A stretch of DNA of 64,000 nt from Acidobacteriota bacterium (GCA_016213755.1 JACQZT010000200.1:2710-66709), one strand, 5' to 3'; counted from the stretch's first letter, positions 6,101 through 33,274 are shown. The notes: generated by a model from the letters alone, not told the origin. Made by a program: numbers and translations.

Positions 6101-6507
6101 CCAATCTCCCCGGCGGCGCGGGGAGCGCGCGGGTGGAGAATTGGGCCATCGGCCCCAACCGTTTCCCGACCTCGGCGCAGAATCCGTACCTGAACTTCAG
6201 CGCTTTCTCCTACCCGGATGCGTTCTCCGCCGGCACGCTGGGCCGCAACATGTTCGAAGGGCCGGGGCTGAACTGGACCCAGATTTCGCTCTCCAAGTGG
6301 TGGAAGTTCGGCGAACGCTACCGGTTCCAGCTTCGCTTCGACGGCAACAACTTCCCGTTCAAACAGCCCAACTTCTCGAACCCCAACTCCAGTTACAATC
6401 GCAACAGCCCGGGCACGTTCGGGCGCATGACCGGGGTTCAGGGATCGTTCTCCAACATCGGCAGCGGGAGACCGAACCTCTACCTCATCGGGCGATTCGA
6501 GTTCTGA
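3136..6507 (+). CDS. TonB-dependent outer-membrane receptor with N-terminal carboxypeptidase-regulatory-like domain
   Basis: Signal peptide, then GTLVGTVTDTTGAIVAGAKVRVV...SPEGSYYTPYLAPGVYRLTVEAAGFK (CarboxypepD_reg). A plug-like region follows, then a long beta-barrel ending in the aromatic terminus ...YLIGRFEF. Confidence 0.9.
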   Translation: MSGVRAARLVLFLSAGMLAGGLWAQTAGTGTLVGTVTDTTGAIVAGAKVRVVSVETSFVSETVTSPEGSYYTPYLAPGVYRLTVEAAGFKRHVRDGIQIRTSEVPRVDVQLEVGALTESINVTGAPPLLETETSSSGQILSGDVLLKIPLSQKRSIRMMYYYPGTSSMSGYHVLGQRQNMIGYTVDGVNGKEPGTQSVGGTDDQISTTQDAFEEVKVHTTGVPAEYGHAAGGLMSIVFKSGANQFHGSGEDRYIGKTMIHRSYLEQLRSTNPFTYHETSFLGTGPVLLPKVYNGRDRTFWLFGWERHREIGGTTAARTAVPTAGMYNGDFSFGGQTSPRPLPVYNPFTTRQEGANWLRDPFPNNVIPKSLFDPAVLKFLAKNPFTAPNQAGIPSATGPAENLVMNQEKRIRRTRMDIKIDHQFTPSHKVFGRYSEARHRAWKGDYQAQFAWREIDPNAQLAPVDQRNVVFSDMMILGPTMNNELRAGYNRRARFETALTKDQDWAKQLGIPNVAGSTFPNFNIGFGLSGLSSFQNVGDDFTLQDNFTRISGKHAVKLGYELIRTRYNATVAVLPSGTYNFGGTNAPFVPNTGQTFASFLLGTVTSATYTQSFASWLPRWWSHQWYIQDDWKPRSGLTLNLGLRWSYESPFQTKYGQNSQYDPAAKDPITGRTGAIGHQPGPFAKKDLNNFAPRVGLAWSFRPKWVLRSSFGVIHQDIFTVGTGILFEEYLATATIQAPTGDPRHVFRLSDGPPSFQYRLQPDGSVPFIGSNYSSRTASWWDPGMRLPYVMNWSGGVQWQFSGNWLLETVYQGQSGVGLVNSWDTNAIPLDVSRDTTVLNQIFQATQNYKPSTQFGAVNLYSNYGHNSHHSGTLRVEKRYSSGLSFNSFYTLGKTLAETDAEGGGGGITYYNRRLEKARANYDLRHRFVSVMSYELPFGKGRHWLNSGGLKNHLAGGWDITWVQTFQSGTPLNVSFTGSPNRYLPGSSRPNLPGGAGSARVENWAIGPNRFPTSAQNPYLNFSAFSYPDAFSAGTLGRNMFEGPGLNWTQISLSKWWKFGERYRFQLRFDGNNFPFKQPNFSNPNSSYNRNSPGTFGRMTGVQGSFSNIGSGRPNLYLIGRFEF

Positions 6508-23033: not shown

Positions 23034-25457
23034 TCATTCGTATCGCAAGGCCGCCATCGGCTCGATGCGCAGTGCGCGACGAGCGGGGACGCAGGCCGCC
23101 AGCAGCGTCACCACCACCAGGATCAGGGCCGCGCCCGCAAGACTCTCCGGATCGGCAGGCGACACACCGAACAGGTCCGCCTGGATCAGAGGTATCACGG
23201 CCAGCGCCAGCAAAGCGCCGATCACCAGTCCGGCGCCGGTGAGCGACATGGTTTGCCGCAGAATCATGCGGAACACGTCGGCGGGCCGCGCCCCCAGCGC
23301 CAGGCGGATGCCGATCTCCGCCGTGCGCCGCGCGACCGCGTAGGACGTCACCGCGTAAACGCCGGCGGCGGATATGAAAAGCGCCAGCAGACCGAAAACG
23401 CCGATCATGGTGGCGTTCATCCTCTCGTTCGCCAGAGTCTCGGCAATGTGCCGGTCCATGGTCAGCAGCGTCGGAAAAGGCAGGTTCGCATCCAGAGCCA
23501 GAACCTGGTCGCGCACGACGGCCATGGCCCCCGCGACGTCGCCGTTACTGCGCACCACCAGTTTCATTCCCGGCTGGTAGTTCTGGGCGAAGGGCAGATA
23601 CAGGAATGGCTGGGGCTTCTCGGCCAGAAAGCCGTACTTGCTGTCGCGCGCGATCCCGACCACTTCGATCAAAGGCCGCGGACCGAGTCGATACCGGAAG
23701 CGGAAGCGCTTCCCGATGGCCGCCTCACCCGGCCACAGGAGGCGGGCCATGGTCTCATTGACCACCGCGACCTTCGGCGCGCCTTCGCCGTCGGCGGGGC
23801 CGAAACCGCGTCCCTGCAACAAGGCGATCCCAAACGTCTCGAAATACTTCTCGCTGACCACGGTATTGCCCACCCGCCGGGGCGCATTCCCGGCGCCGCG
23901 TGCGCTTCCCTCGGCCTCGATCTCCGCATCCCAGACCCATCCCACCGGCAGGGTGTTGGCCAGCGCGGCGCTGCGCACCTGCGGCAGCGCCGCAGCCCGC
24001 GCGAGCAACTCGCCGTACAGCGCCTTCCCGCGCGCATCGGAATACCCCTGCACCCGGAAATCGAACTGCACGGAAAAGACGCTCCGGCGCTGGAAGCCCG
24101 GGTCCATGGATTGCAGATTCCGCAGCGTGCGCACAAACAGTCCGGCCACGACCATGACGACCAGCGACAGCGCGACCTGCGAGACCACCAGCATCTGCCG
24201 CAATCGGACCCGCGAATCGCCTCGCCCCGGCGCCCCGCCTTTGAGGCTGGAGATAACGTCTTCCCGCCGGCATTGCAGAGCCGGAGCGAACCCGAACAGA
24301 AGGCCGCTGAAAACTGAAATCGCCAGCGCGAAGCCGAAGACACGCGGATCGATCGTGTAGTCGACTTCGCTGTAGAAGCTCCGGAACAATTCCCCGCCCC
24401 CCAGCGCAACGGCGAGTCCCGCCACCCCACCCAGGAGCGCCAACAGAATGCTCTCGGTGAGCCACTGCCGGGCCAACCGGGCCCGGCCGGCGCCGATCGC
24501 CAGGCGAACCGCGATCTCCCGCCTGCGGGCCACCGCGCGAGCCAGCAACAGGTTCGCGACGTTGGCGCAGGCGATCAGCAAAACCAATCCCACCATCGCC
24601 ACCAGGACGCGCAACATGCCCACTAAGAAACCGCGCCACTCGGGAATCAGCCGGATCCCGGAAAGCACCAGCACGCGCGCGCGCTTCCCGTCGTCCGGCT
24701 CCTCGAACCGAGCTGCCAGCACGCTCAGCTCCCCCTGGGCCTGTTCCAGCGGGATTCCCGGTCGCAGCCGGCCCACCACGCTCAAGCTCGTGAACAGGCG
24801 GTCGCCCAGCGCGGGGAACTGCGGCCGCGCCTGTCTTTCCATGGCCAGAGGGATCCACAGGTCCAGCTTCGAACCAAGTTCCACACCGCGAAACCCGTCC
24901 GGCGAGACTCCGAGCACCGTGAAAGGGAATCCGTTCAGGGTAATGGTCCGGCCCGCCACGTCAGCTCGGGCGCCAAAGCGCCCTTTCCACAGCGCGTAGC
25001 TCAGTACGGCGACCGGGTGCGCGCCCGGAATGCGGTCGTCCTCGGGGCCGATCAGGCGGCCGAGCGCCGCCCGGATGCCCAAAACCTGAAAGTAGTTCCC
25101 CGTCACGATGCCAACCGGGACCTCCTCCGGACGACTTGCGGCGCTCAGATTCATTCCCGAATCGCAATACGCCATGAGTCCCGAGAAAGAGCGGGCGTGG
25201 TCCCTGTAGTCCAGGTAGCCGAGATGCGAAAAACCATCCGTGTCGCGTCCGCCGAACTGCCGGCGCAACTGCACCAGTGCGCCGGGATCCGACGCTCGGG
25301 GCACGGGGCGGAGCAGCCCTTCGTTGAGGATGCCGAAAACCGTCGTGTTCGCGCCAATCCCCAAAGCAAGCGTCAGGACGCCCACGGCTGTCACTCCCGG
25401 GTTGGCGCGCATGGAGCGCAAGCCGTAACAGACGTCCTGCAACACTCCTGCAAACAC
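23034..25457 (-). CDS. ADOP-type duplicated MacB/FtsX-like ABC permease (no adjacent ATPase)
   Basis: LQDVCYGLRSMRANPGVTAVGVLTLALGIGANT is the typical ADOP N-terminus, and there are two FtsX-like 4-TM halves. The ORF-track start (TTG at 25574) would leave 2 nt before the divergent gene. I prefer GTG at 25457, which is preceded by GGGAGAGGA. Confidence 0.8.
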   Translation of the reverse strand: MFAGVLQDVCYGLRSMRANPGVTAVGVLTLALGIGANTTVFGILNEGLLRPVPRASDPGALVQLRRQFGGRDTDGFSHLGYLDYRDHARSFSGLMAYCDSGMNLSAASRPEEVPVGIVTGNYFQVLGIRAALGRLIGPEDDRIPGAHPVAVLSYALWKGRFGARADVAGRTITLNGFPFTVLGVSPDGFRGVELGSKLDLWIPLAMERQARPQFPALGDRLFTSLSVVGRLRPGIPLEQAQGELSVLAARFEEPDDGKRARVLVLSGIRLIPEWRGFLVGMLRVLVAMVGLVLLIACANVANLLLARAVARRREIAVRLAIGAGRARLARQWLTESILLALLGGVAGLAVALGGGELFRSFYSEVDYTIDPRVFGFALAISVFSGLLFGFAPALQCRREDVISSLKGGAPGRGDSRVRLRQMLVVSQVALSLVVMVVAGLFVRTLRNLQSMDPGFQRRSVFSVQFDFRVQGYSDARGKALYGELLARAAALPQVRSAALANTLPVGWVWDAEIEAEGSARGAGNAPRRVGNTVVSEKYFETFGIALLQGRGFGPADGEGAPKVAVVNETMARLLWPGEAAIGKRFRFRYRLGPRPLIEVVGIARDSKYGFLAEKPQPFLYLPFAQNYQPGMKLVVRSNGDVAGAMAVVRDQVLALDANLPFPTLLTMDRHIAETLANERMNATMIGVFGLLALFISAAGVYAVTSYAVARRTAEIGIRLALGARPADVFRMILRQTMSLTGAGLVIGALLALAVIPLIQADLFGVSPADPESLAGAALILVVVTLLAACVPARRALRIEPMAALRYE

Positions 25458-25576
25458 GGTCCTCTCCCGAACAGGGCCAGTATACAACCGCTGTCGAGAC
25501 TCCCGAAGCCTTGACTTCCCCTTGATCCGGAGGGATTCTGTAGGCAGCAAGTTCAACCGGCAGGAGGGAACCAATC

Positions 25577-25951
25577 ATGGCATGCAGCGGGATCATTCGG
25601 TCCACGGGCCAGGTGGACATCATCGACCTCAAGGGGCGGGTCACGTTGGGCGACGGCTCGGGAGTCATTCGGGAGACGGTCAAGGGCCTGGTGGAAAAAG
25701 GCTCCCGAAGCATCCTGTTGAACCTGGCCGAGGTGACCTACATCGACAGCGCCGGCCTGGGCGACCTGGTAGGCAGCTACGCCACCGTCACCAGCGTCGG
25801 CGGCCACATGAAGCTCTTGCACGCGCAAAAACGCGTCCACGACGTGCTGCAAATCACCAAGCTGTACACGGTGTTTGAGGCCTTTACCGACGAGGCTGCG
25901 GCGGTCGCCAGTTTCCAGACCCCGGCCGCGCGCGCCGCCGCCGAGGGATGA
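25577..25951 (+). CDS. STAS-domain anti-sigma-factor antagonist (SpoIIAA/RsbV-like)
   Basis: IIDLKGRVTLGDGS...LLNLAEVTYIDSAGLGDLVG...HMKLLHAQKRVHDVLQITKL. The phosphorylatable Ser of the DSAG motif falls at residue 58. Confidence 0.85.
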   Translation: MACSGIIRSTGQVDIIDLKGRVTLGDGSGVIRETVKGLVEKGSRSILLNLAEVTYIDSAGLGDLVGSYATVTSVGGHMKLLHAQKRVHDVLQITKLYTVFEAFTDEAAAVASFQTPAARAAAEG

Positions 25952-26970
25952 GGATCGCCCTCGACGCAACCCCGCTGTCGGTGGCTACCGGCGGCATCCC
26001 GCGCTATCTCCGTGAACTCGCCGCCGCGCTGCGGGAGACCGGGCCGGGCGACGAGACGATCTTCCTCACCGATCGGGGACAACCCGCCACCTGGCTCACC
26101 CGCCGCTGGTGGTCGGCCGGGCTTCCCCTGGAGTTATTGCGCCGCCGGGTGGATCTTTTTCACGGCGTCGATTTCGCGGTCCCCTATCTGCCGGTGTGCC
26201 CGAGCGTGATGACGCTGCACGATCTTTCTCCCTGGATGGATTCAACCTGGCACATCGGCGCCCAGCGGGTCCGCGCGCGCACGCCGGCGCTTCTGCGCCT
26301 GGGTTTGGCGACCCTGGCGATCACACCCTGCGAGGCCGTGCGCCGCCAGGCCATCGACCGCTTTCTGCTGCCGGCGGGGCGCGTGGTGAGCGTGCCGCTG
26401 GCCGCGTCGCCGCTGTTCCGGCCCGCCGCCCCGCCTCGCCGGCCGCGGCCGTACTTCCTTTTCGTCGGTACGCTGGAGCCGCGCAAGAACCTGGCGACTA
26501 TCCTGGAAGCGTGGCGCGAAACACGCCGCCACTTCGACGCGGACCTGGTGCTGGCCGGCCGGTGCCGCGAAGACTTCACGCCGCCCGCGCCGGAGCCGGG
26601 ACTGGAGTGGACCGGCGCCGTGCCCGACGACGACCTGCCCGCCCTGTATGCGGGCGCCGCGGCGTTCCTGTATCCTTCCCATTACGAGGGCTTCGGCCTG
26701 CCGGTGCTGGAGGCCATGCAGTGCGGCGCTCCGGTGATCGTGTCCCGCGACGCGGCGCTGGGAGAAGTCGCTGGCGATGCCGCGCTGCGCCTGGAGGCCG
26801 GCGACCCGCGAGCTTGGGCCGAAGCCCTGCGCCTGGCGCTGGCGAACCCGGACTGGCGCCGGCGACAGAGCGAAAGATCGCTGCAAAGGGCCGCCCAGTT
26901 CAGTTGGCGGCGCACGGCGCGCCAGACGCGAGAGGTGTATGCGGAAGCCATCCGACGCTTCGGGAGCTGA
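25948..26970 (+). CDS. Glycosyltransferase family 4 (GT-B)
   Basis: Its ATG overlaps the STAS stop codon (ATGA). MRIALDATPL...GGIPRY. C-terminal PSHYEGFGLPVLEAMQCGAPVIVS (the E-x7-E region). Confidence 0.85.
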   Translation: MRIALDATPLSVATGGIPRYLRELAAALRETGPGDETIFLTDRGQPATWLTRRWWSAGLPLELLRRRVDLFHGVDFAVPYLPVCPSVMTLHDLSPWMDSTWHIGAQRVRARTPALLRLGLATLAITPCEAVRRQAIDRFLLPAGRVVSVPLAASPLFRPAAPPRRPRPYFLFVGTLEPRKNLATILEAWRETRRHFDADLVLAGRCREDFTPPAPEPGLEWTGAVPDDDLPALYAGAAAFLYPSHYEGFGLPVLEAMQCGAPVIVSRDAALGEVAGDAALRLEAGDPRAWAEALRLALANPDWRRRQSERSLQRAAQFSWRRTARQTREVYAEAIRRFGS

Positions 26971-28165
26971 CAGATCGGCCCTCATCCTCGCGCCCGAAGC
27001 GCCCTACCCGGCGGTGGGCGGCGGGCCGCTGCGCACGGCGTCGCTGGTGGAGTACCTGGCGCGGCGCTTCACGGTGGACATCATCGTGTTTCGCGAGCCG
27101 TCCGCGCCACTCCCGCTCGCGGCGTTTACGGCCGGACTGGCGCGGCGCCAGGATGTCCTCCAACTCCCTTATCACGCCCGCCACTGGCCGGCGCGCGCCG
27201 GGCGAAACCTCTCCCGCCTGCTGCGAGGCGCTCCCCCGCTGAACGACCGCTTCGCGGGTTTCGGAGATGCCCTCAGCCGCCTTCTGGAAGGCCGCGCCTA
27301 CGACTTCGCCCTGGTCGAGCATTTCTGGTGCGCGCCCTACCTGGAACAAGTGGGCGCGGTGAGCCGCTCGGTGGCGCTGGATCTGCACAACCTCGAGTCG
27401 GTCCTGCTGGCGCGCACGGCGGACACCGAAACCGCCCCGGCGCGGCTCATGTTGCGCCGCTTCGCCGCCGCCAGCGCGGCGCTGGAGCGGCAATGGCTGC
27501 CGCGCTTCCCCTGGTTGCTGGTCACCAGCCGCCAGGACGCGGCCCGCGCGCGGGAGATCGCCCCGCGGGCGCAAATCCGCGTCTATCCGAATGCCCTCCC
27601 CTGGCGCGGCGTCCCCGCGGCCGAGAAGCAGGAAGCGATCGTGTTCTCCGGCAACCTGGAGTATCATCCCAACCGCGCGGCGGCCGAATTCTTCGCGCGT
27701 ACTGTTTGGCCCGGACTGCGCGCCCGCTGGCCCGATTTGCGCTGGCGGATCGTGGGCAAGAACCCGCACGCGTTGCGCGCGCTGGCGGCCGGCGACCCGC
27801 GCATCGAGCTTTCCGGCCCGGTGGAGGACGCGATTGCGGAGCTGGCCCGCGCCTCGGTGGCGGTGGCGCCCATGCTCTCCGGCAGCGGAACGCGGGTGAA
27901 AATCCTGGAGGCCTGGGCCGCGGCGCTCCCAGTGGTGTCCACGACCCTGGGCGCCGAAGGCCTGGAAGCGCGCGACGGCGAGCACCTGCTGCTGGCCGAC
28001 TCGGCGGAGGGCCTGCGCCGGGCCATCGACGGCCTGCTGGTCTCGCCGGCAAGGCGAGCCAGTCTCGGCGCCGCGGCGCGCCGCCTGTATGAGCGGAACT
28101 ACACCTGGGAGGCGGCCTGGCGGAGCCTGGACGAGGCGGGGCTGGAACCGGTTGTGGTGAAATAA
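26939..28165 (+). CDS. Glycosyltransferase family 4 (GT-B)
   Basis: Internal ATG of ORF 26777..28165, preceded by GAGAGG. It overlaps the previous GT4 by 32 nt. LILAPEAPYPAVGGGPLR... and SGSGTRVKILEAWAAALPVVST. Confidence 0.8.
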   Translation: MRKPSDASGADRSALILAPEAPYPAVGGGPLRTASLVEYLARRFTVDIIVFREPSAPLPLAAFTAGLARRQDVLQLPYHARHWPARAGRNLSRLLRGAPPLNDRFAGFGDALSRLLEGRAYDFALVEHFWCAPYLEQVGAVSRSVALDLHNLESVLLARTADTETAPARLMLRRFAAASAALERQWLPRFPWLLVTSRQDAARAREIAPRAQIRVYPNALPWRGVPAAEKQEAIVFSGNLEYHPNRAAAEFFARTVWPGLRARWPDLRWRIVGKNPHALRALAAGDPRIELSGPVEDAIAELARASVAVAPMLSGSGTRVKILEAWAAALPVVSTTLGAEGLEARDGEHLLLADSAEGLRRAIDGLLVSPARRASLGAAARRLYERNYTWEAAWRSLDEAGLEPVVVK

Positions 28166-28171
28166 ACTCTT

Positions 28172-28786
28172 ATGGATTTCGTCACCGGCAATCTCGGCTG
28201 GATCGAAGTGATCTGCGGCCCGATGTTCTCTGGCAAGAGCGAGGAGCTGATCCGGCGCCTGCGCCGCGCCATGATCGCGCGCAAACGCGTGCAGGTTTTT
28301 AAGCCCGTGATCGACGACCGCTACTCGCGCAAACAGATCGTCTCCCACGGCGACCAGCGGATGAACTCGGAAGTGGTCGCCGCACCGTCGGAAATCCTCG
28401 CCCGGCTTGATTGGCGCACGCAGGTGGTGGGCATCGACGAAGCGAATTTCCTGGGCGCCGAATTGGTCGAGATCGCCAGCCAGTTGGCGGACAGCGGCAA
28501 GCAGGTGATCGTCGGCGGCCTGGACACCGACTACCTCGGGCGGCCGTTCGCGCCCATCCCGGACTTGCTGGCGCTGGCCGAATCCATTACCAAAACGCTG
28601 GCCATCTGTATGCGCTGCGGCAACCCCGCCAAGCACACGCAGCGGCTGGTCGAGTCCGAGGACCTCATCGTGGTCGGCGCGGCGGGGATGTACGAAGCGC
28701 GCTGCCGCCGGTGTTTCGAGCCCGGCATCCCGAAACAGGAACTGCTGGAATTCGCCCGGCCGCGCCTGGAACGGGATAGCGAATGA
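28172..28786 (+). CDS. tdk: Thymidine kinase
   Basis: VICGPMFSGKSEELIRR (P-loop), VVGIDEANF, and the zinc site C-M-R-C ... C-R-R-C. Confidence 0.92.
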   Translation: MDFVTGNLGWIEVICGPMFSGKSEELIRRLRRAMIARKRVQVFKPVIDDRYSRKQIVSHGDQRMNSEVVAAPSEILARLDWRTQVVGIDEANFLGAELVEIASQLADSGKQVIVGGLDTDYLGRPFAPIPDLLALAESITKTLAICMRCGNPAKHTQRLVESEDLIVVGAAGMYEARCRRCFEPGIPKQELLEFARPRLERDSE

Positions 28787-28848: not shown

Positions 28849-29727
28849 GTGAGTGACTATACCCCCATGGCCCCGCCGCCCCCGCCGTCCGGCGGCTCGG
28901 GACTGAAGATTCCGATTCTGTTCGGCGCCGTGATTGCCCTGCTGGCCGCCAATGTGTACTTGTTCCTGCAACTGGACAAAGTGCGGACCGACGTATCCAA
29001 GAACCGCGAGGCCCTGGCCACTGAAATCGCGAACCTGCGCGAAACCTCTTCGGTGACCACGCAAACTTCCCGCCGCAACCTGGACACGCTGCGCGACGAG
29101 CTGGAAGCCGCCCGCCGGCAGGCCTCCATGGCCGCCGGTCAGGCCAAAGTGGAAGCGCAGAAACATGCCGACGACCTGGCCCGCCGCCTGGAGGTGGAGC
29201 AGAAGAAAGCCCAGCAGGCGGTGCAGGGTGAGATCAGCCAGGTGCGTGAAACCGCCACCGCCACCAGCAGCAAGCTGGGCGAGGTTTCGACCGAGGTCGG
29301 CAGCGTGAAAAGCGAAGTCGCGGCCACCAAGGGCGAACTCGAGAAAACTATCGCGGATCTCAAGCGCGTGACCGGCGACCTGGGTATGCAGAGCGGGCTG
29401 ATCGCCACCAACGGCAAGGAGATCGCGGCCCTGAAGGCGCTCGGCGACCGCAACATCTTCGAATTCACGCTGGGCAAGACCAAGGCCCCGCAACGCATCG
29501 GCGATATCGCCATGCAGCTTAAGAAGACCGATCCCAAGAAGAACAAGTACACCGTGGACGTCGTGGCCGACGACAAGAAGGTCGAGAAGAAAGACAAAGG
29601 CGTCAACGAGCCGGTGCAGTTCCTGGTGGCCAAGGCACAGGGCCGCCCTTACGAGATCGTGGTCAACGAGGTCAAGAAGGACATCATCGTGGGCTACCTG
29701 TCCACTCCCAAAGTGGTCGGGCGATAG
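28849..29727 (+). CDS. Membrane-anchored coiled-coil protein, function unknown
   Basis: GTG start (alternative ATG at 28867). Pro-rich N-terminus, one TM segment (IPILFGAVIALLAANVYLFL), a long heptad-like segment and a Lys-rich C-terminal domain. Confidence 0.65.
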   Translation: MSDYTPMAPPPPPSGGSGLKIPILFGAVIALLAANVYLFLQLDKVRTDVSKNREALATEIANLRETSSVTTQTSRRNLDTLRDELEAARRQASMAAGQAKVEAQKHADDLARRLEVEQKKAQQAVQGEISQVRETATATSSKLGEVSTEVGSVKSEVAATKGELEKTIADLKRVTGDLGMQSGLIATNGKEIAALKALGDRNIFEFTLGKTKAPQRIGDIAMQLKKTDPKKNKYTVDVVADDKKVEKKDKGVNEPVQFLVAKAQGRPYEIVVNEVKKDIIVGYLSTPKVVGR

Positions 29728-29752: not shown

Positions 29753-30547
29753 CTACTCCAGGGTCAAGGCCGAAACCAGCAGCTTCTCCGGACGCCGCAC
29801 TTCGATTTTCATCCGCTCGCTCAGAGCCAGGTTGCCGCTCAGCGTGAGTATGTAGTGCGCGCGCAGCACCTCGAAAATGCGCGCTCCGGGCGCGTCCTCG
29901 GAGGCCCGTTTCATGTCCCGCAAGTTGAACGACGCCCCGCCGGTCTGCCGCGCCAGCGACTCGAACAATGATCGCCCCACGCCGGTCATGTAGACCGGAT
30001 AGATCGATACCTGGTTGCGCCGCGCCAGGCGAAACACTTCGCGCTCGCCGGTGCGGCTGGGCCCCTCGTAGCCGGTGCTGAGCAGGACAATGACGCGGCG
30101 CGACACGGTCCCCTGAAACCCTCCGTCCATGGCGGCGTACAGCGCGTCCAGCACCCGCGGGCTGTTGCCGAATTTCACTCCCGCCACGGCCCGCGACAGC
30201 AGTTCCCGGCTGGAGGTGAAATCCTGGATCAGGGTGGCCGACGAGTCGAAGGCCACCACCGCCATTTGCTCCTTATCCTGCAACTGGCCGATCAGGTTGC
30301 CGGCCACTGGCAGCACGGCGCCGCCGGCCAGGCTGGTATCGAGCAGCAGCATCGCGTCGATCGGTCCGCTGGAGTGCTCGGCCAACTCCACGCGCCGCGG
30401 AACACGGTCGTCGAGCACCGAGAAGTCGCCCGCTTTGAGATCCCGCACCGGCCGCCCGGATTTCTGCTCCACCACCGTGACCAGCACCCGGGTCGCGGCC
30501 GGAGCCGGCAGCGCGAGCAGCACCAGGAGCAGGGCGCGGTTCCTCAT
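29753..30547 (-). CDS. Secreted VWA-domain protein (Acidobacterial VWFA-related, TIGR03436-like)
   Basis: Signal peptide MRNRALLLVLLALPAPAA. N-terminal beta segment VLVTVVEQKSGRPVRDLKAGDFSVLDD, then a VWA core LLLDTSLAG...VVAFDS. The MIDAS motif reads D-T-S-L-A, so the second Ser of DxSxS is absent. The start overlaps the stop of the upstream gene (ATGA). Confidence 0.8.
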   Translation of the reverse strand: MRNRALLLVLLALPAPAATRVLVTVVEQKSGRPVRDLKAGDFSVLDDRVPRRVELAEHSSGPIDAMLLLDTSLAGGAVLPVAGNLIGQLQDKEQMAVVAFDSSATLIQDFTSSRELLSRAVAGVKFGNSPRVLDALYAAMDGGFQGTVSRRVIVLLSTGYEGPSRTGEREVFRLARRNQVSIYPVYMTGVGRSLFESLARQTGGASFNLRDMKRASEDAPGARIFEVLRAHYILTLSGNLALSERMKIEVRRPEKLLVSALTLE

Positions 30548-31785
30548 TCCGCTTTCCGCGCGCCCTCCTGCTTGCCCTCGGCGCCGGTAGCAACGCGAAC
30601 CTTGGTCCCGGTATCCAGGCGCGCCACCTGCGTGGTGGCCACCCGGTCGCCCACCTCCAGCCCCTCGACAATCTCCACTTCCTGGTCGAAGCGGTCGCCC
30701 AGCTTCACTTCGCGCGCTTCCACCTGGTCGCCGCGCACGATGTACGCTTTGTTGGAACCGAGCACGTAGTTCACCGCGCGCACCGGCACCAGGCGGATCT
30801 GGTCGATCTTCTCGGTCGGCACCCGCGCGCGGGCGTAGGAACCAGGCTTCAGCGTCCCGCCCGGGTTGTCGATCAGCGCTTCAATCAGGAAGGTGCGTTT
30901 GGACTGTTCGACAGTGGGTGAGATGCGCCAGATCTTGCCGTGAAAAACCCGGTCCGAATACGCCTCCAGGACCACCTCCGTGGTCTGGCCGCTTTTGACC
31001 CAGGGGGCCATGCGTTCGGGAATCTCCAGCCGCAGCCGGATCGGATCGATCTTCACCAGCGTCAGCAGCGGCGTATTGGTGCGCACGTATTGTCCGACCG
31101 CGACCTGCCGGTCCTTGACCGCGGCGGCGAAAGGCGCACGCACGATGGTATCGCGCAGTTTCTTACGCTGCAAGTCCAGCACGGCCCTGAATCGTTCCAC
31201 TTCGCGGATCAGGTTGCGGGTCTGGTTCAGCATCGCGTCGTAAGCCGCCTGCATGGTGCCGAGCCGCGCCTGGGCCTGGTCCAGATCCGCCTGGGAAGCG
31301 ATGCCCTGGTCCACCAGGTTTCGCGCGCGCTTGTAACGCTGCTCGGCATCGGTCAGCTCCGCCTGGGCACGCCGCACTTCGGGCGTCTCGCGAATGTCCT
31401 TGACCTTGTCCGTTTCGTCCTTCAATCCCAGCCGCTCGAGAGACTGCCGCAATTGCGCCTCGTTCTGCGCCACCACGTAACGCTGCTCCTCGTCGAGAAT
31501 CCGCACCATGACTTGGCCGGGCGTCACTTGGTCTCCCAGATCGACGTTCACCTGCTCGATGCGGCCTTCCACCTCCGCGCTGACAATGATCTCCTCGAAG
31601 GGAAAAAGGGTCCCCACCGACTCCACCACGCGCCGCATCTCGCGCGTGATCACCGGCGCCACACGCACCGCGATGGGACCCGTGTCCTGTTTGGTGACCG
31701 CGGCCTTCTGCCGGCTGCATCCGCTGAATACAATTGTAAGGCTCGCCAGGGCGAGCCACTTCCGTATAGACATGAGTTCGCTCAT
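30544..31785 (-). CDS. Membrane-fusion (HlyD/MacA/AcrA-type periplasmic adaptor) lipoprotein
   Basis: The first ATG is at 31785, with an alternative at 31773; the ORF-track start at 31815 is GTG. Lipobox LTIVFSGC. A coiled-coil hairpin is flanked by lipoyl-like and beta-barrel segments (VSAEVEGRIEQVNVDLGDQVTPGQVM..., IVRAPFAAAVKDRQVAVGQYV). Confidence 0.85.
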   Translation of the reverse strand: MSELMSIRKWLALASLTIVFSGCSRQKAAVTKQDTGPIAVRVAPVITREMRRVVESVGTLFPFEEIIVSAEVEGRIEQVNVDLGDQVTPGQVMVRILDEEQRYVVAQNEAQLRQSLERLGLKDETDKVKDIRETPEVRRAQAELTDAEQRYKRARNLVDQGIASQADLDQAQARLGTMQAAYDAMLNQTRNLIREVERFRAVLDLQRKKLRDTIVRAPFAAAVKDRQVAVGQYVRTNTPLLTLVKIDPIRLRLEIPERMAPWVKSGQTTEVVLEAYSDRVFHGKIWRISPTVEQSKRTFLIEALIDNPGGTLKPGSYARARVPTEKIDQIRLVPVRAVNYVLGSNKAYIVRGDQVEAREVKLGDRFDQEVEIVEGLEVGDRVATTQVARLDTGTKVRVATGAEGKQEGARKAE

Positions 31786-31858
31786 CTTGTAGCTTAGCGC
31801 TTTGCAGCGCGGCACGAGAATAGAATAACGCTATTCGCGGGGGCGGGGTTACGGGCGA

Positions 31859-32128
31859 TCAGAGCAGCAGAAACCCGGTTTCGACCTGGCCGGCCAGAAT
31901 GCGGTTCCAGATCACCCGGGCATCGCCTTCCAGCGTGGAATAGCGGAAGTGCACGTTCTGGCCCGGCTCCAGCAGCGGGTAAGAGTGCTGGGCGCGGAAA
32001 CCCCGGTGGCTGACGTCTATCAGGCGCCCCTGGAATTCGCGCGGCGCCGGGTGATATATCATGAGGGTCAAACCGCCCTCCAGCGCTTCCCGGATCTCGC
32101 TGCGTCGGTCGTCGCTTGGCTCGGGCAT
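31859..32128 (-). CDS. Stand-alone PilZ-domain protein (predicted c-di-GMP receptor)
   Basis: 89 aa. RRSEIR (RRxxxR) at residues 8-13 and DVSHRG (DxSxxG) about 25 residues later. It begins 8 nt after the stop of the sigma-54 activator gene. Confidence 0.75.
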   Translation of the reverse strand: MPEPSDDRRSEIREALEGGLTLMIYHPAPREFQGRLIDVSHRGFRAQHSYPLLEPGQNVHFRYSTLEGDARVIWNRILAGQVETGFLLL

Positions 32129-32135
32129 GCCGCAC

Positions 32136-33107
32136 CTATGTCGCGCAGGCCTTGCTCGAGCTTTCCAGCCGGTAGACCTTCAGCTTGCGCGCCAGAGTTC
32201 GCCGCGAGATGCCCAGCATCCGGGCGGCCCGCTGCTGGTGTCCGCCGGTGCTGGCCAGGGTGTTCATGATCAGCTTGCGTTCCACGCAGTCGATCCGCGA
32301 GCCCGCCGCGGCCGGCGGCGGCTCCACCCGGCAGGTCCGTCCGGTGACTTCAGCAGGCAGGTCGGCCAGTTCCACCAGGGGATGGGTCGAAAACACGATC
32401 GTCTTCAGGATTACGTTGCGCAACTGGCGCACGTTGCCCGGCCAGTGATACTCGGTGAGAGCGCGGACGGCGTCCGCGGACAGGCGCATTTCCGGGTTGC
32501 CGCGCCGCAGGTAAAACAAGGCCAGCGGCAGGACGTCCTCGGGCCGTTCGCGGAGCGCGGGAACCCGGATGCAGATCTGGCCCAGCCGGTGGTAGAGGTC
32601 TCCCCGGAACTGCCCGCTTTCGATGCCGGCGAGCAGGTCCCGGTTGCTGGCCGCCACAATGCGCACGTCCACAAAGATCTTGCGCGTGCTCCCCAGGCGG
32701 TAGTACCCGGCGCCGTCCAACACCCGCAGCAGCTTTACTTGCAATCGGGGATCCAATTCGCCGACCTCGTCCAGAAACAGCGTCCCCGTATGGGCCGCCT
32801 CGAACAGTCCCGGCTTGGCCGCCTCGGCGCCGCTGAAGGCGCCTTTCTCATGCCCGAACAGCTCGCTCTCGATCAGGCTTTCGGGCAAGGCCGCGCAACT
32901 GACGTCCACCCACGGCCGGCTGCACCGCAAAGAGAAGTGGTGCACGGCGCGCGCCACCAGTTCCTTGCCGCTGCCGCTTTCGCCTTCCACCAGGACCGCG
33001 GCGTCGGAACGGGCCGCTCGCTCGGTTCTCTCAAACACCTCGCGCATGGCCCGGCTGTGGATTACAGCGGGCATACCAAGAACGTCGATGGAAACACTCA
33101 GGCCCAC
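32136..33107 (-). CDS. Sigma-54-dependent transcriptional activator (bEBP) lacking an N-terminal sensory/receiver domain (PspF-like architecture)
   Basis: GTG start (alternative ATG at 33074). The AAA+ core starts within about 15 aa. Walker A GESGSGKE, Walker B LFLDEVGEL, sigma-54 contact loop GAFSGA (a GAFTGA variant), WPGNVRQL, and a C-terminal Fis-type HTH AARMLGISRRTLARKLK. Confidence 0.9.
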   Translation of the reverse strand: MGLSVSIDVLGMPAVIHSRAMREVFERTERAARSDAAVLVEGESGSGKELVARAVHHFSLRCSRPWVDVSCAALPESLIESELFGHEKGAFSGAEAAKPGLFEAAHTGTLFLDEVGELDPRLQVKLLRVLDGAGYYRLGSTRKIFVDVRIVAASNRDLLAGIESGQFRGDLYHRLGQICIRVPALRERPEDVLPLALFYLRRGNPEMRLSADAVRALTEYHWPGNVRQLRNVILKTIVFSTHPLVELADLPAEVTGRTCRVEPPPAAAGSRIDCVERKLIMNTLASTGGHQQRAARMLGISRRTLARKLKVYRLESSSKACAT

Positions 33108-33187
33108 TCACTCTACACTTTCGGCTCAAAGAGCAGCCCGCCACCTAAGGCAAACCCCCGACTCGCCGCCCCCGAACCACCCTACAA

Positions 33188-33274
33188 AAACCGGGACAGG
33201 CAGCGCTTTCCCATTTTTAAGTCCAATGGTTTCAACGCATCTCAAAAATGGGAAAGTGCTGCCTGTCCCGGTTT
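33188..33274. repeat. Long near-perfect palindrome: about 31-bp stem (one G-T pair), 25-nt loop. It may act as a terminator for the cupin operon.
   Basis: AAACCGGGACAGGCAGCGCTTTCCCATTTTT ... AAAAATGGGAAAGTGCTGCCTGTCCCGGTTT. It begins 1 nt after the cupin stop codon. On the minus strand it is followed by TTTTTG. Confidence 0.6.

What the first reader, a model, noticed from the sequence alone, without database searches (positions are those of the whole stretch)
29753..33107. Sensor-less sigma-54 activator + stand-alone PilZ + pump-less membrane-fusion protein + VWFA protein in one tight operon
Four minus-strand genes are packed head to tail. The bEBP stop and the PilZ start are 8 nt apart. The PilZ stop and the adaptor start are 43-73 nt apart. 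The adaptor stop overlaps the VWFA start (ATGA). The bEBP has an intact AAA+ core (GESGSGKE, GAFSGA, Fis HTH) but essentially no N-terminal input domain, so like PspF it should need a trans-acting regulator. The gene immediately downstream encodes an 89-aa PilZ protein with intact RRxxxR and DxSxxG c-di-GMP motifs. My hypothesis is that the PilZ protein is the detachable c-di-GMP sensor of this activator. This would be a two-protein version of what FleQ-type activators do in a single chain. The output genes are also odd. There is a MacA/AcrA-type lipoprotein adaptor with no inner-membrane pump or OMF beside it. There is also a secreted TIGR03436-like VWA protein whose MIDAS motif is degenerate (DTSLA). 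I do not know of this four-gene module being described.
Basis: partly seen in the sequence, partly recalled or inferred. Interest (0 to 1): 0.7.

Follow-up and report, generated by a model that had tools for sequence, protein, structure and literature searches.

The report
PilZ-partnered sensor-less sigma-54 activator
A sigma-54 transcription activator with no sensor domain is always encoded next to, and sometimes fused with, a tiny c-di-GMP-binding PilZ protein in soil Acidobacteriota, which points to an undescribed way of linking this second messenger to gene activation. The two export genes beside it are unrelated neighbours.

Summary
The four minus-strand genes exist as described, with small corrections to coordinates.

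The conserved unit is the bEBP-PilZ pair, not the four genes.
- In 92 related loci, a short activator (AAA+ plus Fis HTH only) lies directly upstream of the PilZ gene in all 87 loci that can be assessed. The two genes often overlap.
- At least 8 proteins are natural bEBP-PilZ fusions.
- The PilZ keeps RRxxxR and DxSxxG. Its predicted fold matches PilZ domains solved with c-di-GMP bound.

In nearly all relatives the pair faces a divergent MASE9-HD-GYP-GAF-GGDEF gene. That gene is preceded by a conserved sigma-54 promoter and by GACA-N3-TGTC dyads, which suggests a c-di-GMP feedback loop. This window lacks that gene, the dyads and any credible nearby sigma-54 promoter, so the local target is unknown.

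The MFP-VWA pair follows PilZ in only 8 loci. It also occurs without bEBP-PilZ, and it has no sigma-54 promoter. An orphan MacB-type permease lies 5 kb away, so a pump-less adaptor is not unusual here.

The "four-gene module with odd outputs" is not supported. I found no description of the pair in the literature I could search. I rate it a new variant of known kinds.

The parts
32136..33107 (-). Sensor-less sigma-54 activator (bEBP): AAA+ core, lid and Fis-type HTH, with only about 15 residues before the AAA+ domain. GAFSGA loop.
   Evidence: Pfam hits Sigma54_activat 209.5 bits, AAA_lid_14 and HTH_8. This is the longest possible ORF. Orthologues are 309-405 aa. It scores below the equivalog cut-offs for PspF, NtrC and the other named activators.
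31859..32128 (-). Stand-alone PilZ protein of 89 aa, with RRSEIR and DVSHRG motifs: a six-stranded beta-barrel without a C-terminal helix.
   Evidence: The subfamily has 506 representative clusters, almost all 85-120 aa.
32129..32135 (-). 7-nt junction between the bEBP stop codon and the PilZ ATG. This is the window's version of the tight or overlapping junction seen throughout the family.
   Evidence: overlaps of -11 or -4 nt in 46 of 84 loci.
33188..33274 (.). Inverted repeat with 34-nt arms, followed by a T-run. It is most likely the intrinsic terminator of the upstream cupin gene and marks the start of the bEBP transcription unit. It occupies the place where relatives carry the divergent regulatory region.
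   Evidence: RNA fold -66.6 kcal/mol, z = -9.9. It is unique in the window. Rfam gave only sub-threshold hairpin matches.
33179..33184 (-). TAGGGT box, a possible -10 element of the bEBP-PilZ promoter. This is an inference.
   Evidence: TAGGGTGTTCGG-like sequence recurs upstream of the bEBP in L004-L009, and TAGGGA in L016, L017 and L102. The sigma-70 consensus scan found nothing.
31774..31858 (-). PilZ-MFP spacer of 85 nt. It is partly conserved in the MFP-bearing subclade and has no sigma-54 promoter, terminator or riboswitch.
30544..31773 (-). Lipoprotein membrane-fusion (periplasmic adaptor) protein. It is a neighbour, probably co-transcribed, and not part of the conserved module.
   Evidence: TIGR01730 at 203 bits; HlyD_D23 and HlyD_3. 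The start is set by the alignment. It is found without bEBP-PilZ in L101.
29753..30547 (-). Secreted VWA protein of the TIGR03436 type with a non-canonical MIDAS (DTSLA). It is translationally coupled to the MFP through an ATGA overlap.
   Evidence: Orthologues at 65-85% identity are widespread. DTSL plus a hydrophobic residue is conserved. It occurs alone next to the coiled-coil/TK genes in L100.
28849..29727 (+). Convergent 292-aa coiled-coil membrane protein. Together with thymidine kinase (28172-28786) it is a synteny anchor of this chromosomal neighbourhood.
   Evidence: It lies convergent to PilZ or VWA in L002, L003, L005, L007, L008, L013, L016, L076 and L100.

Best explanation
The activator and the PilZ protein form a two-gene signalling module that is widespread in Acidobacteriota (Terriglobia, Bryobacterales).

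The activator has PspF-like architecture: AAA+ and HTH with no input domain. It therefore needs a regulator acting in trans.

The PilZ protein, translated from the same mRNA, binds c-di-GMP through RRxxxR/DxSxxG. It then binds the activator and changes its oligomerisation, ATPase activity or DNA binding. The direction of the effect is unknown.

In most genomes the activator binds one or two GACA-N3-TGTC dyads. It drives a sigma-54 promoter in front of the divergently transcribed MASE9-HD-GYP-GAF-GGDEF enzyme, so c-di-GMP feeds back on its own turnover.

In this window, and in L102, that enzyme gene and its enhancer are missing. The pair must act on a target elsewhere in the genome.

The MFP and VWA genes downstream are a separate conserved gene pair. 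Here they are probably co-transcribed from the non-sigma-54 promoter of the pair. They are neighbours, not demonstrated outputs.

Shown: gene anatomy, domain content, conservation of adjacency, fusions, and the promoter and dyad motifs.

Inferred: c-di-GMP binding, the PilZ-activator contact, the dyads as the activator's binding sites, the feedback logic, and co-transcription of MFP-VWA.
For: - Adjacency: the bEBP lies immediately upstream of PilZ in 87 of 87 assessable loci out of 92. The two relatives found from the bEBP side and looked up also carry PilZ. The genes overlap by 4 or 11 nt in 46 of the 84 loci where a PilZ start could be placed.
- Fusions, first kind: P0130, P0154 and P0155 carry this PilZ subfamily at the C-terminus.
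- Fusions, second kind: P0166, P0189, P0206, P0240 and P0241 carry a different PilZ that Pfam detects. P0166 and P0240 score 37.5 and 39.4 bits.
- Fusion context: the looked-up fusions P0154, P0155 and P0240 lie beside the same divergent enzyme gene.
- No input domain: this is the longest possible ORF. Apart from the fusions and the 427-aa P0182, the top 120 relatives of the related fusion protein P0130 are 309-405 aa.
- PilZ identity: both motifs are found in 126 of 144 family members. The model has pLDDT 88.3. The best Foldseek hits are the PilZ domains of BcsA, PP4397, YcgR, PA0012/TssZ, MapZ and Alg44, most solved with c-di-GMP bound.
- c-di-GMP link: the divergent enzyme is present in all 43 loci with enough upstream sequence. 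It keeps HDIGK and HHExxDGxGYP. It keeps GGDEF, with RxxD in 4 of the 5 enzymes checked.
- Sigma-54 target: a tTGGCAg-N5-cTGCA element points at the enzyme gene. It reaches the 95th percentile of shuffles in 76% of 42 unique regions, against 0% on the other strand. GACA-N3-TGTC dyads are present in 39 of 43 regions, often two sites 31 nt apart.
- Precedent: a stand-alone PilZ that controls a transcription factor is known, TssZ-HinK (PMC10912698).
Against: - There is no biochemical evidence for c-di-GMP binding or for a PilZ-activator contact.
- The Pfam PilZ score is below the gathering cut-off.
- The model lacks the C-terminal helix of canonical PilZ domains (10.1101/814665).
- The second kind of fusion lacks a clean RxxxR motif. 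This is my own reading of the sequence.
- In this window there is no HD-GYP/GGDEF gene, no GACA-N3-TGTC dyad in 64 kb, and no intergenic sigma-54 promoter. The local output is unknown.
- rpoN was not looked for.
- Adjacency and fusion show a functional link but not its mechanism or sign.
Confidence: 0.6

Rival explanations
1. The four genes are one functional unit. The PilZ-gated activator controls the MFP and VWA genes, which make a c-di-GMP-regulated envelope, adhesion or export device.
For: The four genes lie head to tail in 8 loci: the window, L001, L013-L017 and L102. No terminator was found between PilZ and MFP. Parts of the spacer are conserved.
Against: - 84 of the 92 PilZ-anchored loci show no MFP-VWA after PilZ, although many of those contigs end soon after PilZ. 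In the longer ones the genes after PilZ vary: HicB, Memo, TAtT, BlaR/BlaI-like.
- MFP-VWA occurs without the pair in L101, and VWA occurs alone in L100.
- The spacer has no -24/-12 element and the window has no dyad.
- The adjacency is explained by shared synteny with the coiled-coil/TK genes.
Confidence: 0.12
2. The PilZ protein is co-expressed with the activator but acts on another partner. Candidates are the neighbouring HD-GYP/GGDEF enzyme (as an allosteric adaptor or c-di-GMP buffer) or an unlinked target. It does not regulate the activator itself.
For: The three-gene neighbourhood is equally compatible with a PilZ-enzyme interaction. Known stand-alone PilZ adaptors bind many kinds of partner, for example MapZ-CheR1 (PDB 5XLY and 5Y4R among the hits).
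Against: Both kinds of fusion join PilZ to the activator, never to the enzyme. The pair is kept intact where the enzyme gene is absent, in the window and in L102. The gene overlap points to matched stoichiometry with the activator.
Confidence: 0.15
3. The small protein has a PilZ fold but does not sense c-di-GMP. It is a constitutive subunit or anti-activator, analogous to PspA, HrpV or FleN, and responds to some other cue.
For: - The Pfam score is below the cut-off.
- The model has no C-terminal helix.
- Non-binding stand-alone PilZ proteins exist, for example Xac1133 (10.1101/814665).
- The second kind of fusion has a degenerate first motif.
Against: R9, R13, D38, S40 and G43 are invariant or nearly so across the subfamily. 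Non-binding PilZ proteins lose exactly these residues. The module is genomically tied to a c-di-GMP enzyme.
Confidence: 0.1

Closest known systems
PspF/PspA (E. coli phage-shock system)
   Same: The activator consists only of AAA+ and HTH and is controlled in trans by a separately encoded protein.
   Different: It is not a PspF orthologue: TIGR02974 scores 245.7 bits against a cut-off of 443.55. No pspA-like gene is present. The partner is a PilZ barrel whose motifs imply a nucleotide signal rather than membrane stress.
FleQ, FlrA and VpsR (c-di-GMP-binding bEBPs)
   Same: c-di-GMP is coupled to an NtrC-family AAA+ transcription factor.
   Different: In those proteins c-di-GMP binds the AAA+ domain itself, through LFRS/RN/ExxxR in FleQ (PMC10333796). 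Here the activator lacks LFRS and reads RA instead of RN after Walker A (direct reading), has no FleQ N-terminal domain, and the nucleotide-binding motifs sit on a separate or C-terminally fused PilZ.
Stand-alone PilZ adaptors: TssZ (PA0012)-HinK, MapZ-CheR1, HapZ-SagS
   Same: A PilZ protein of about 85-120 aa binds c-di-GMP and controls a partner protein. TssZ controls a transcription factor (PMC10912698). PA0012 is a close structural match, TM 0.78 over 85 residues.
   Different: The partner here is a sigma-54 AAA+ activator, not a LasR-type regulator, a methyltransferase or a kinase. The genes are strictly adjacent or fused. The PilZ subfamily has its own signature, GFRA.H ... ARV.WNR ... 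VE[ST]GF.
MrkH (PilZ-containing transcription activator of Klebsiella)
   Same: A PilZ domain directly gates transcription activation in response to c-di-GMP.
   Different: MrkH is a single-chain PilZN2-PilZ protein that acts with sigma-70 RNA polymerase. It has no AAA+ domain and no sigma-54.
MacA/YknX-type membrane-fusion proteins and TIGR03436 acidobacterial VWA proteins
   Same: The two downstream genes belong to, or sit at the edge of, these families.
   Different: No adjacent pump or outer-membrane factor is present. The MIDAS is DxSx-hydrophobic across the orthologues. These genes are not tied to the bEBP-PilZ module.

Membership tests
Bacterial enhancer-binding protein (sigma-54 activator, NtrC family) | Sigma-54 interaction AAA+ domain with Walker A, Walker B and a GAFTGA loop | tested here: met
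   Sigma54_activat scores 209.5 bits. GESGSGKE, LFLDEVGEL and GAFSGA (a T-to-S variant) are read directly. The same GAFSGA is present in the related fusion proteins.
Bacterial enhancer-binding protein (sigma-54 activator, NtrC family) | C-terminal Fis-type HTH and a cognate enhancer plus a -24/-12 promoter | tested here: inconclusive
   HTH_8 scores 60.3 bits. A conserved -24/-12 promoter and dyads are found next to the orthologues, but none is found in this window.
PspF-type (input-domain-less) bEBP | No N-terminal regulatory domain | tested here: met
   The longest possible ORF is 323 aa and the AAA+ domain starts at residue 16. Apart from the fusions and the 427-aa P0182, the nearest 120 relatives are 309-405 aa.
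PspF-type (input-domain-less) bEBP | Orthology to PspF and a PspA partner | tested here: not met
   TIGR02974 scores 245.7 bits against a cut-off of 443.55, and PRK11608 scores 193 against 529. No pspA-like gene was seen next to the bEBP.
PilZ domain (PF07238), c-di-GMP receptor | Match to the family profile at the curated threshold | tested here: not met
   It scores 18.9 bits against a gathering cut-off of 22.5. NCBIfam gave no hit.
PilZ domain (PF07238), c-di-GMP receptor | RxxxR and [D/N]xSxxG motifs with the usual spacing | tested here: met
   RRSEIR is at residues 8-13 and DVSHRG at 38-43. These residues are invariant in A1 and A3. Both motifs occur in 126 of 144 family members.
PilZ domain (PF07238), c-di-GMP receptor | Six-stranded beta-barrel fold | tested here: met
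   The AlphaFold2 model has pLDDT 88.3 and six strands. Foldseek probability is 1.00 to the PilZ domains of BcsA, PP4397, YcgR, PA0012, MapZ and Alg44.
PilZ domain (PF07238), c-di-GMP receptor | C-terminal alpha-helix of the canonical type (Galperin & Chou) | tested here: not met
   The model ends with strand 6 at residue 88 and has no helix. The criterion is taken from 10.1101/814665.
PilZ domain (PF07238), c-di-GMP receptor | Actual c-di-GMP binding | not testable with these tools
   This requires DRaCALA, ITC or MST on purified protein.
FleQ-type c-di-GMP-binding bEBP | FleQ N-terminal domain and LFRS / R-N / ExxxR c-di-GMP contacts in the AAA+ domain | tested here: not met
   There is no N-terminal domain. 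No LFRS precedes Walker A, and the post-Walker A sequence reads VARA rather than ARN (direct reading). The motifs are as listed in PMC10333796. ExxxR was not assessed.
RND/ABC membrane-fusion (periplasmic adaptor) protein | Family profile match and lipoprotein or membrane anchor | tested here: met
   TIGR01730 scores 203.4 bits against 94.9. HlyD_D23 scores 93.6 and HlyD_3 81.1. The lipobox VFSGC follows the start at 31773.
RND/ABC membrane-fusion (periplasmic adaptor) protein | Encoded next to its inner-membrane pump | tested here: not met
   No pump gene is adjacent. An orphan MacB_PCD/FtsX permease lies at 23034-25574.
TIGR03436 acidobacterial VWA protein / VWA domain | Profile match at the cut-off and a canonical DxSxS MIDAS | tested here: not met
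   TIGR03436 scores 77.9 bits against 81.25. VWA_2 scores 20.7 against 27. The MIDAS position reads DTSLA, and DTSL plus a hydrophobic residue occurs in about 105 of 120 orthologues.

The most novel reading that the evidence does not exclude
The bEBP-PilZ pair is the first example of a PilZ receptor that gates a sigma-54 AAA+ activator in trans, or in cis in the fused forms. Together with the divergent sigma-54-dependent MASE9-HD-GYP-GAF-GGDEF gene, it forms a c-di-GMP homeostat that appears confined to Acidobacteriota. In this circuit the messenger controls transcription of its own bifunctional synthase/phosphodiesterase.
Probability: 0.45. Interest if true: 0.7.

Novelty: new variant of a known kind. 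Interest (0 to 1): 0.6.

Why it matters
Known links between c-di-GMP and sigma-54 activators all involve the nucleotide binding the AAA+ domain itself (FleQ, FlrA, FlrC, VpsR). Known stand-alone PilZ adaptors act on motors, kinases, a methyltransferase or a LasR-type regulator.

A PilZ protein that gates an input-less AAA+ activator would add a new wiring principle. It would also give a function to one family of short bEBPs with no known input. The subfamily has 506 representative clusters, and 348 matching stretches were found in metagenome contigs.

Acidobacteriota are abundant in soil, and I know of almost no experimental work on their signalling.

The inferred feedback onto a bifunctional HD-GYP/GGDEF enzyme is a simple circuit that can be tested directly. 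The natural split and fused versions offer ready-made constructs for structural work.

Tried and rejected
- **Longer bEBP from an upstream start.** Rejected: this is the longest possible ORF, a terminator hairpin lies upstream, and orthologues share the same short N-terminus...(V)FLGM....
- **Sigma-54 promoter for MFP-VWA or for the operon.** The consensus and PWM scans gave only intragenic, chance-level hits. The consensus scan found 48 matches against 79 expected. The spacer alignment shows no GG-N10-GC.
- **Sigma-70 and terminator consensus scan.** It was uninformative: 0 promoters, and terminators at chance level.
- **Enhancer dyad in the window.** TGCGACAAACTGTCTCA with up to 3 mismatches, and GACA-N3-TGTC, both gave 0 hits in 64 kb. 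The hairpin arms carry GGGACA and TGTCCC about 60 nt apart. I treat this as coincidence or a remnant.
- **HD-GYP/GGDEF homologue in the window.** tblastn found none.
- **Riboswitch or sRNA in the intergenic regions.** Rfam gave only sub-threshold miRNA-model hits on the hairpin.
- **Broad alignments A2 and A3 for the locus scan.** The narrower A4 worked.
- **Word-indexed protein search.** It found only 4 PilZ relatives and greatly understated the family. The exhaustive HMMER search found 506 clusters.
- **Literature searches** on PilZ with bEBP, sigma-54, PspF or Acidobacteria found no description of the pair.
- **AlphaFold model of a fusion protein.** Not run, because the tool returns no inter-domain contacts or PAE and so could not test docking.

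Full report
**1. The observation**

The four minus-strand ORFs are present as described.

- **bEBP (32136-33107, 323 aa).** It has Sigma54_activat (209.5 bits), AAA_lid_14 and HTH_8. The AAA+ domain begins at residue 16. It scores below every NCBIfam equivalog cut-off, including PspF at 245.7 against 443.55.
- **89-aa ORF (31859-32128).** It scores only 18.9 bits on Pfam PilZ, below the 22.5 cut-off. It carries RRSEIR and DVSHRG.
- **MFP.** It is a clear TIGR01730 adaptor at 203 bits.
- **VWA protein.** It scores 77.9 bits on TIGR03436, just under the 81.25 cut-off.

Junctions, read:
- 7 nt lie between the bEBP stop codon and the PilZ ATG.
- The MFP stop and the VWA start overlap as ATGA.

An alignment of seven loci shows that the real MFP start is ATG 31773 (M-S-I-R-K-W..., lipobox VFSGC). 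This leaves an 85-nt spacer.

Upstream of the bEBP, a 34-nt-arm inverted repeat followed by a T-run closes the cupin gene (-66.6 kcal/mol, z = -9.9). The bEBP therefore starts its own transcription unit, and no longer bEBP is possible.

**2. The PilZ protein is real and belongs to a large, distinct subfamily**

The word-indexed search found only four relatives. An exhaustive HMMER search with their alignment found 506 representative clusters, 334 of them at E ≤ 1e-10. Nearly all are 85-120 aa.

R9, R13 and G43 are invariant, and D38 and S40 nearly so. Both motifs are found in 126 of 144 members. The subfamily has its own signature: GFRA.H ... ARV.WNR ... VE[ST]GF.

The AlphaFold2 model (pLDDT 88.3) is a six-stranded barrel with a disordered N-terminal arm and no C-terminal helix. 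Its best PDB matches are the PilZ domains of BcsA, PP4397, YcgR, PA0012/TssZ, MapZ and Alg44, most of them solved with c-di-GMP bound.

**3. The conserved unit is the bEBP-PilZ pair**

I scanned GTDB genomes (9 loci, all Terriglobia, Bryobacterales or Ca. Solibacter) and metagenomes (348 matches, best 80 kept). With three contigs from the look-ups, this gave 92 loci.

- tblastn with the window's proteins places a bEBP immediately upstream of PilZ in 87 loci. The other five have fewer than 125 nt of upstream sequence.
- The bEBP alignment always starts near residue 10. The longest possible ORFs are 311-357 aa.
- The genes overlap by 11 or 4 nt in 46 of the 84 loci where a PilZ start could be placed, and are otherwise mostly 4-29 nt apart.
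- I searched from the activator side using the related fusion protein P0130 as query. The best 120 relatives are 309-405 aa apart from the fusions and P0182, a 427-aa protein with an N-terminal extension and no PilZ.
- The two non-fused relatives I looked up both carry the PilZ gene. One of these PilZ genes had been mis-called on the opposite strand.

**4. Natural fusions**

One search revealed a 460-aa protein, and one search revealed more.

- P0130, P0154 and P0155 (70-83% identical to each other) are bEBP plus this PilZ subfamily at the C-terminus.
- P0166, P0189, P0206, P0240 and P0241 are the same short bEBP fused to a different PilZ domain that Pfam does detect. P0166 and P0240 score 37.5 and 39.4 bits, located after HTH_8.
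- The three fusions I looked up (P0154, P0155, P0240) lie in the same genomic context as the split pair.

Two independent fusion events to the same activator family are strong evidence that PilZ and the activator work together. The second kind of fusion has QQxYFR instead of RxxxR, by my reading, so its ligand binding is less certain.

**5. A third conserved partner that is missing from this window**

In every one of the 43 loci with enough upstream sequence, a gene of about 810-865 aa is transcribed divergently from the bEBP. This includes L016 and L017, which also carry MFP-VWA.

- Its domains are MASE9 (weak), HD_5/HD-GYP, GAF and GGDEF.
- It keeps HDIGK and HHExxDGxGYP. It keeps GGDEF, with an RxxD I-site in 4 of the 5 enzymes checked.

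The intergenic regions contain two conserved elements.
- **A -24/-12 element, tTGGCAg-N5-cTGCA, pointing at the enzyme gene.** The mean best PWM score is 10.8 bits, against 4.3 for shuffles and 4.0 for the opposite strand. 76% of 42 unique regions reach the 95th percentile of shuffles, against 0% on the other strand.
- **One or two GACA-N3-TGTC dyads, often 31 nt apart, upstream of that promoter.** They are present in 39 of 43 regions. By my own estimate, chance would give about 0.004 per region.

This is the classical enhancer-plus-sigma-54-promoter layout. I infer that the bEBP binds the dyads and activates the enzyme gene, which would make a c-di-GMP feedback loop.

**6. What differs in this window**

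- The window has no HD-GYP/GGDEF homologue, no dyad, and no intergenic sigma-54 promoter.
- Cupin and DUF2961 genes and the hairpin occupy the position of the divergent gene.
- L102, whose VWA is 80% identical, shows the same four genes and also lacks the enzyme gene.
- The local target of the activator is therefore unknown. It must be sought elsewhere in the genome.

**7. The MFP-VWA pair**

MFP-VWA follows PilZ in only 8 loci: the window, L001, L013-L017 and L102. Many of the other contigs end soon after PilZ. In the longer ones the downstream genes vary: HicB, Memo, TAtT, BlaR/BlaI-like, or the convergent coiled-coil gene directly.

VWA orthologues at 65-85% identity and 263-266 aa are widespread in Bryobacteraceae.
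- In L100 the VWA stands alone beside the same coiled-coil and thymidine-kinase genes.
- In L101, MFP-VWA occurs without bEBP-PilZ.

The adjacency is therefore best explained by shared chromosomal neighbourhood.

The spacer has no sigma-54 promoter, no predicted terminator and no Rfam match. Co-transcription from the pair's own promoter is plausible but not shown. A conserved TAGGGT-like box upstream of the bEBP may belong to that promoter.

The non-canonical MIDAS, DTSL plus a hydrophobic residue, is a conserved trait of the orthologue family.

An 846-aa MacB_PCD/FtsX permease with no neighbouring partners lies at 23034-25574. From my own knowledge, orphan duplicated permeases of this kind (ADOP, TIGR03434) are typical of Acidobacteria. 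A pump-less adaptor is therefore unremarkable here.

**8. Comparison with known systems**

- Architecturally the activator resembles PspF, but it is not a PspF orthologue and has no PspA.
- Known c-di-GMP-responsive bEBPs (FleQ, FlrA, FlrC, VpsR) bind the nucleotide on the AAA+ domain (PMC10333796).
- Known stand-alone PilZ adaptors include TssZ, which inhibits the LasR-type regulator HinK (PMC10912698). TssZ/PA0012 is also a close structural match.
- Six literature searches found no description of a PilZ-bEBP pair or fusion. The PilZ domain survey 10.1101/814665 does not mention one either.
- The library is incomplete, so prior mention in domain-architecture databases cannot be excluded.

**9. 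Verdict**

The PilZ-as-trans-sensor hypothesis gains strong comparative support and a plausible circuit. The four-gene module and its "odd outputs" do not hold up.

I rate the novelty as a new variant of known kinds, and interest at about 0.6. Confidence in the PilZ-gates-bEBP mechanism is about 0.6. The sign of the regulation and the target in this genome remain open.

Noticed in passing
window 23034-25574 (-): An 846-aa duplicated MacB_PCD/FtsX permease with no adjacent ATPase or adaptor. It resembles the orphan ADOP-type permeases and is a possible, untested partner for the orphan MFP 5 kb away.
   Followed up: partly
window 33188-33274: A very stable inverted repeat with 34-nt arms, unique in the window. 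Its arms contain GGGACA and TGTCCC, the half-sites of the enhancer dyad seen in relatives, but about 60 nt apart instead of 3. It may be a terminator, or a remnant or rearrangement scar of the lost divergent regulatory region.
   Followed up: partly
L004-L099: the region between the HD-GYP/GGDEF gene and the bEBP (for example L050, L060): A conserved sigma-54 promoter (tTGGCAg-N5-cTGCA) and tandem GACA-N3-TGTC dyads 31 nt apart lie in front of a MASE9-HD-GYP-GAF-GGDEF gene. In several loci (L093, L094, L098, L099) this gene is followed by ABC peptide/oligopeptide-type transporter genes (BPD_transp_1 x2, SBP_bac_5).
   Followed up: partly
L099 6105-6422: The public gene call places a 105-aa ORF on the minus strand where the PilZ gene lies on the plus strand (6114-6362). 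Mis-calls of this kind will hide the pair in automated neighbourhood surveys.
   Followed up: yes
window 28849-29727 (+) and 28172-28786 (+): A 292-aa coiled-coil membrane protein and thymidine kinase are conserved synteny partners. They lie convergent to the bEBP-PilZ unit or to VWA across many Bryobacterales loci. The function of the coiled-coil protein is unknown.
   Followed up: no
window 25577-28165 (+): A STAS-domain protein is followed by two overlapping GT4 glycosyltransferase genes, in a stretch with raised G+C (0.72). This may be an exopolysaccharide-related cluster.
   Followed up: no
L007 and L010 (GTDB MAGs), and L005: The divergent HD-GYP/GGDEF gene appears in several frame-shifted pieces in these assemblies. 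These are either assembly errors in long-read MAGs or pseudogenisation.
   Followed up: no
window 29753-30547 and 120 orthologues (P0273-P0392): The MIDAS position of this VWA family is DTSL plus V, L, A or M in almost all members. The loss of the second serine is therefore a fixed family trait and not decay in this genome.
   Followed up: yes
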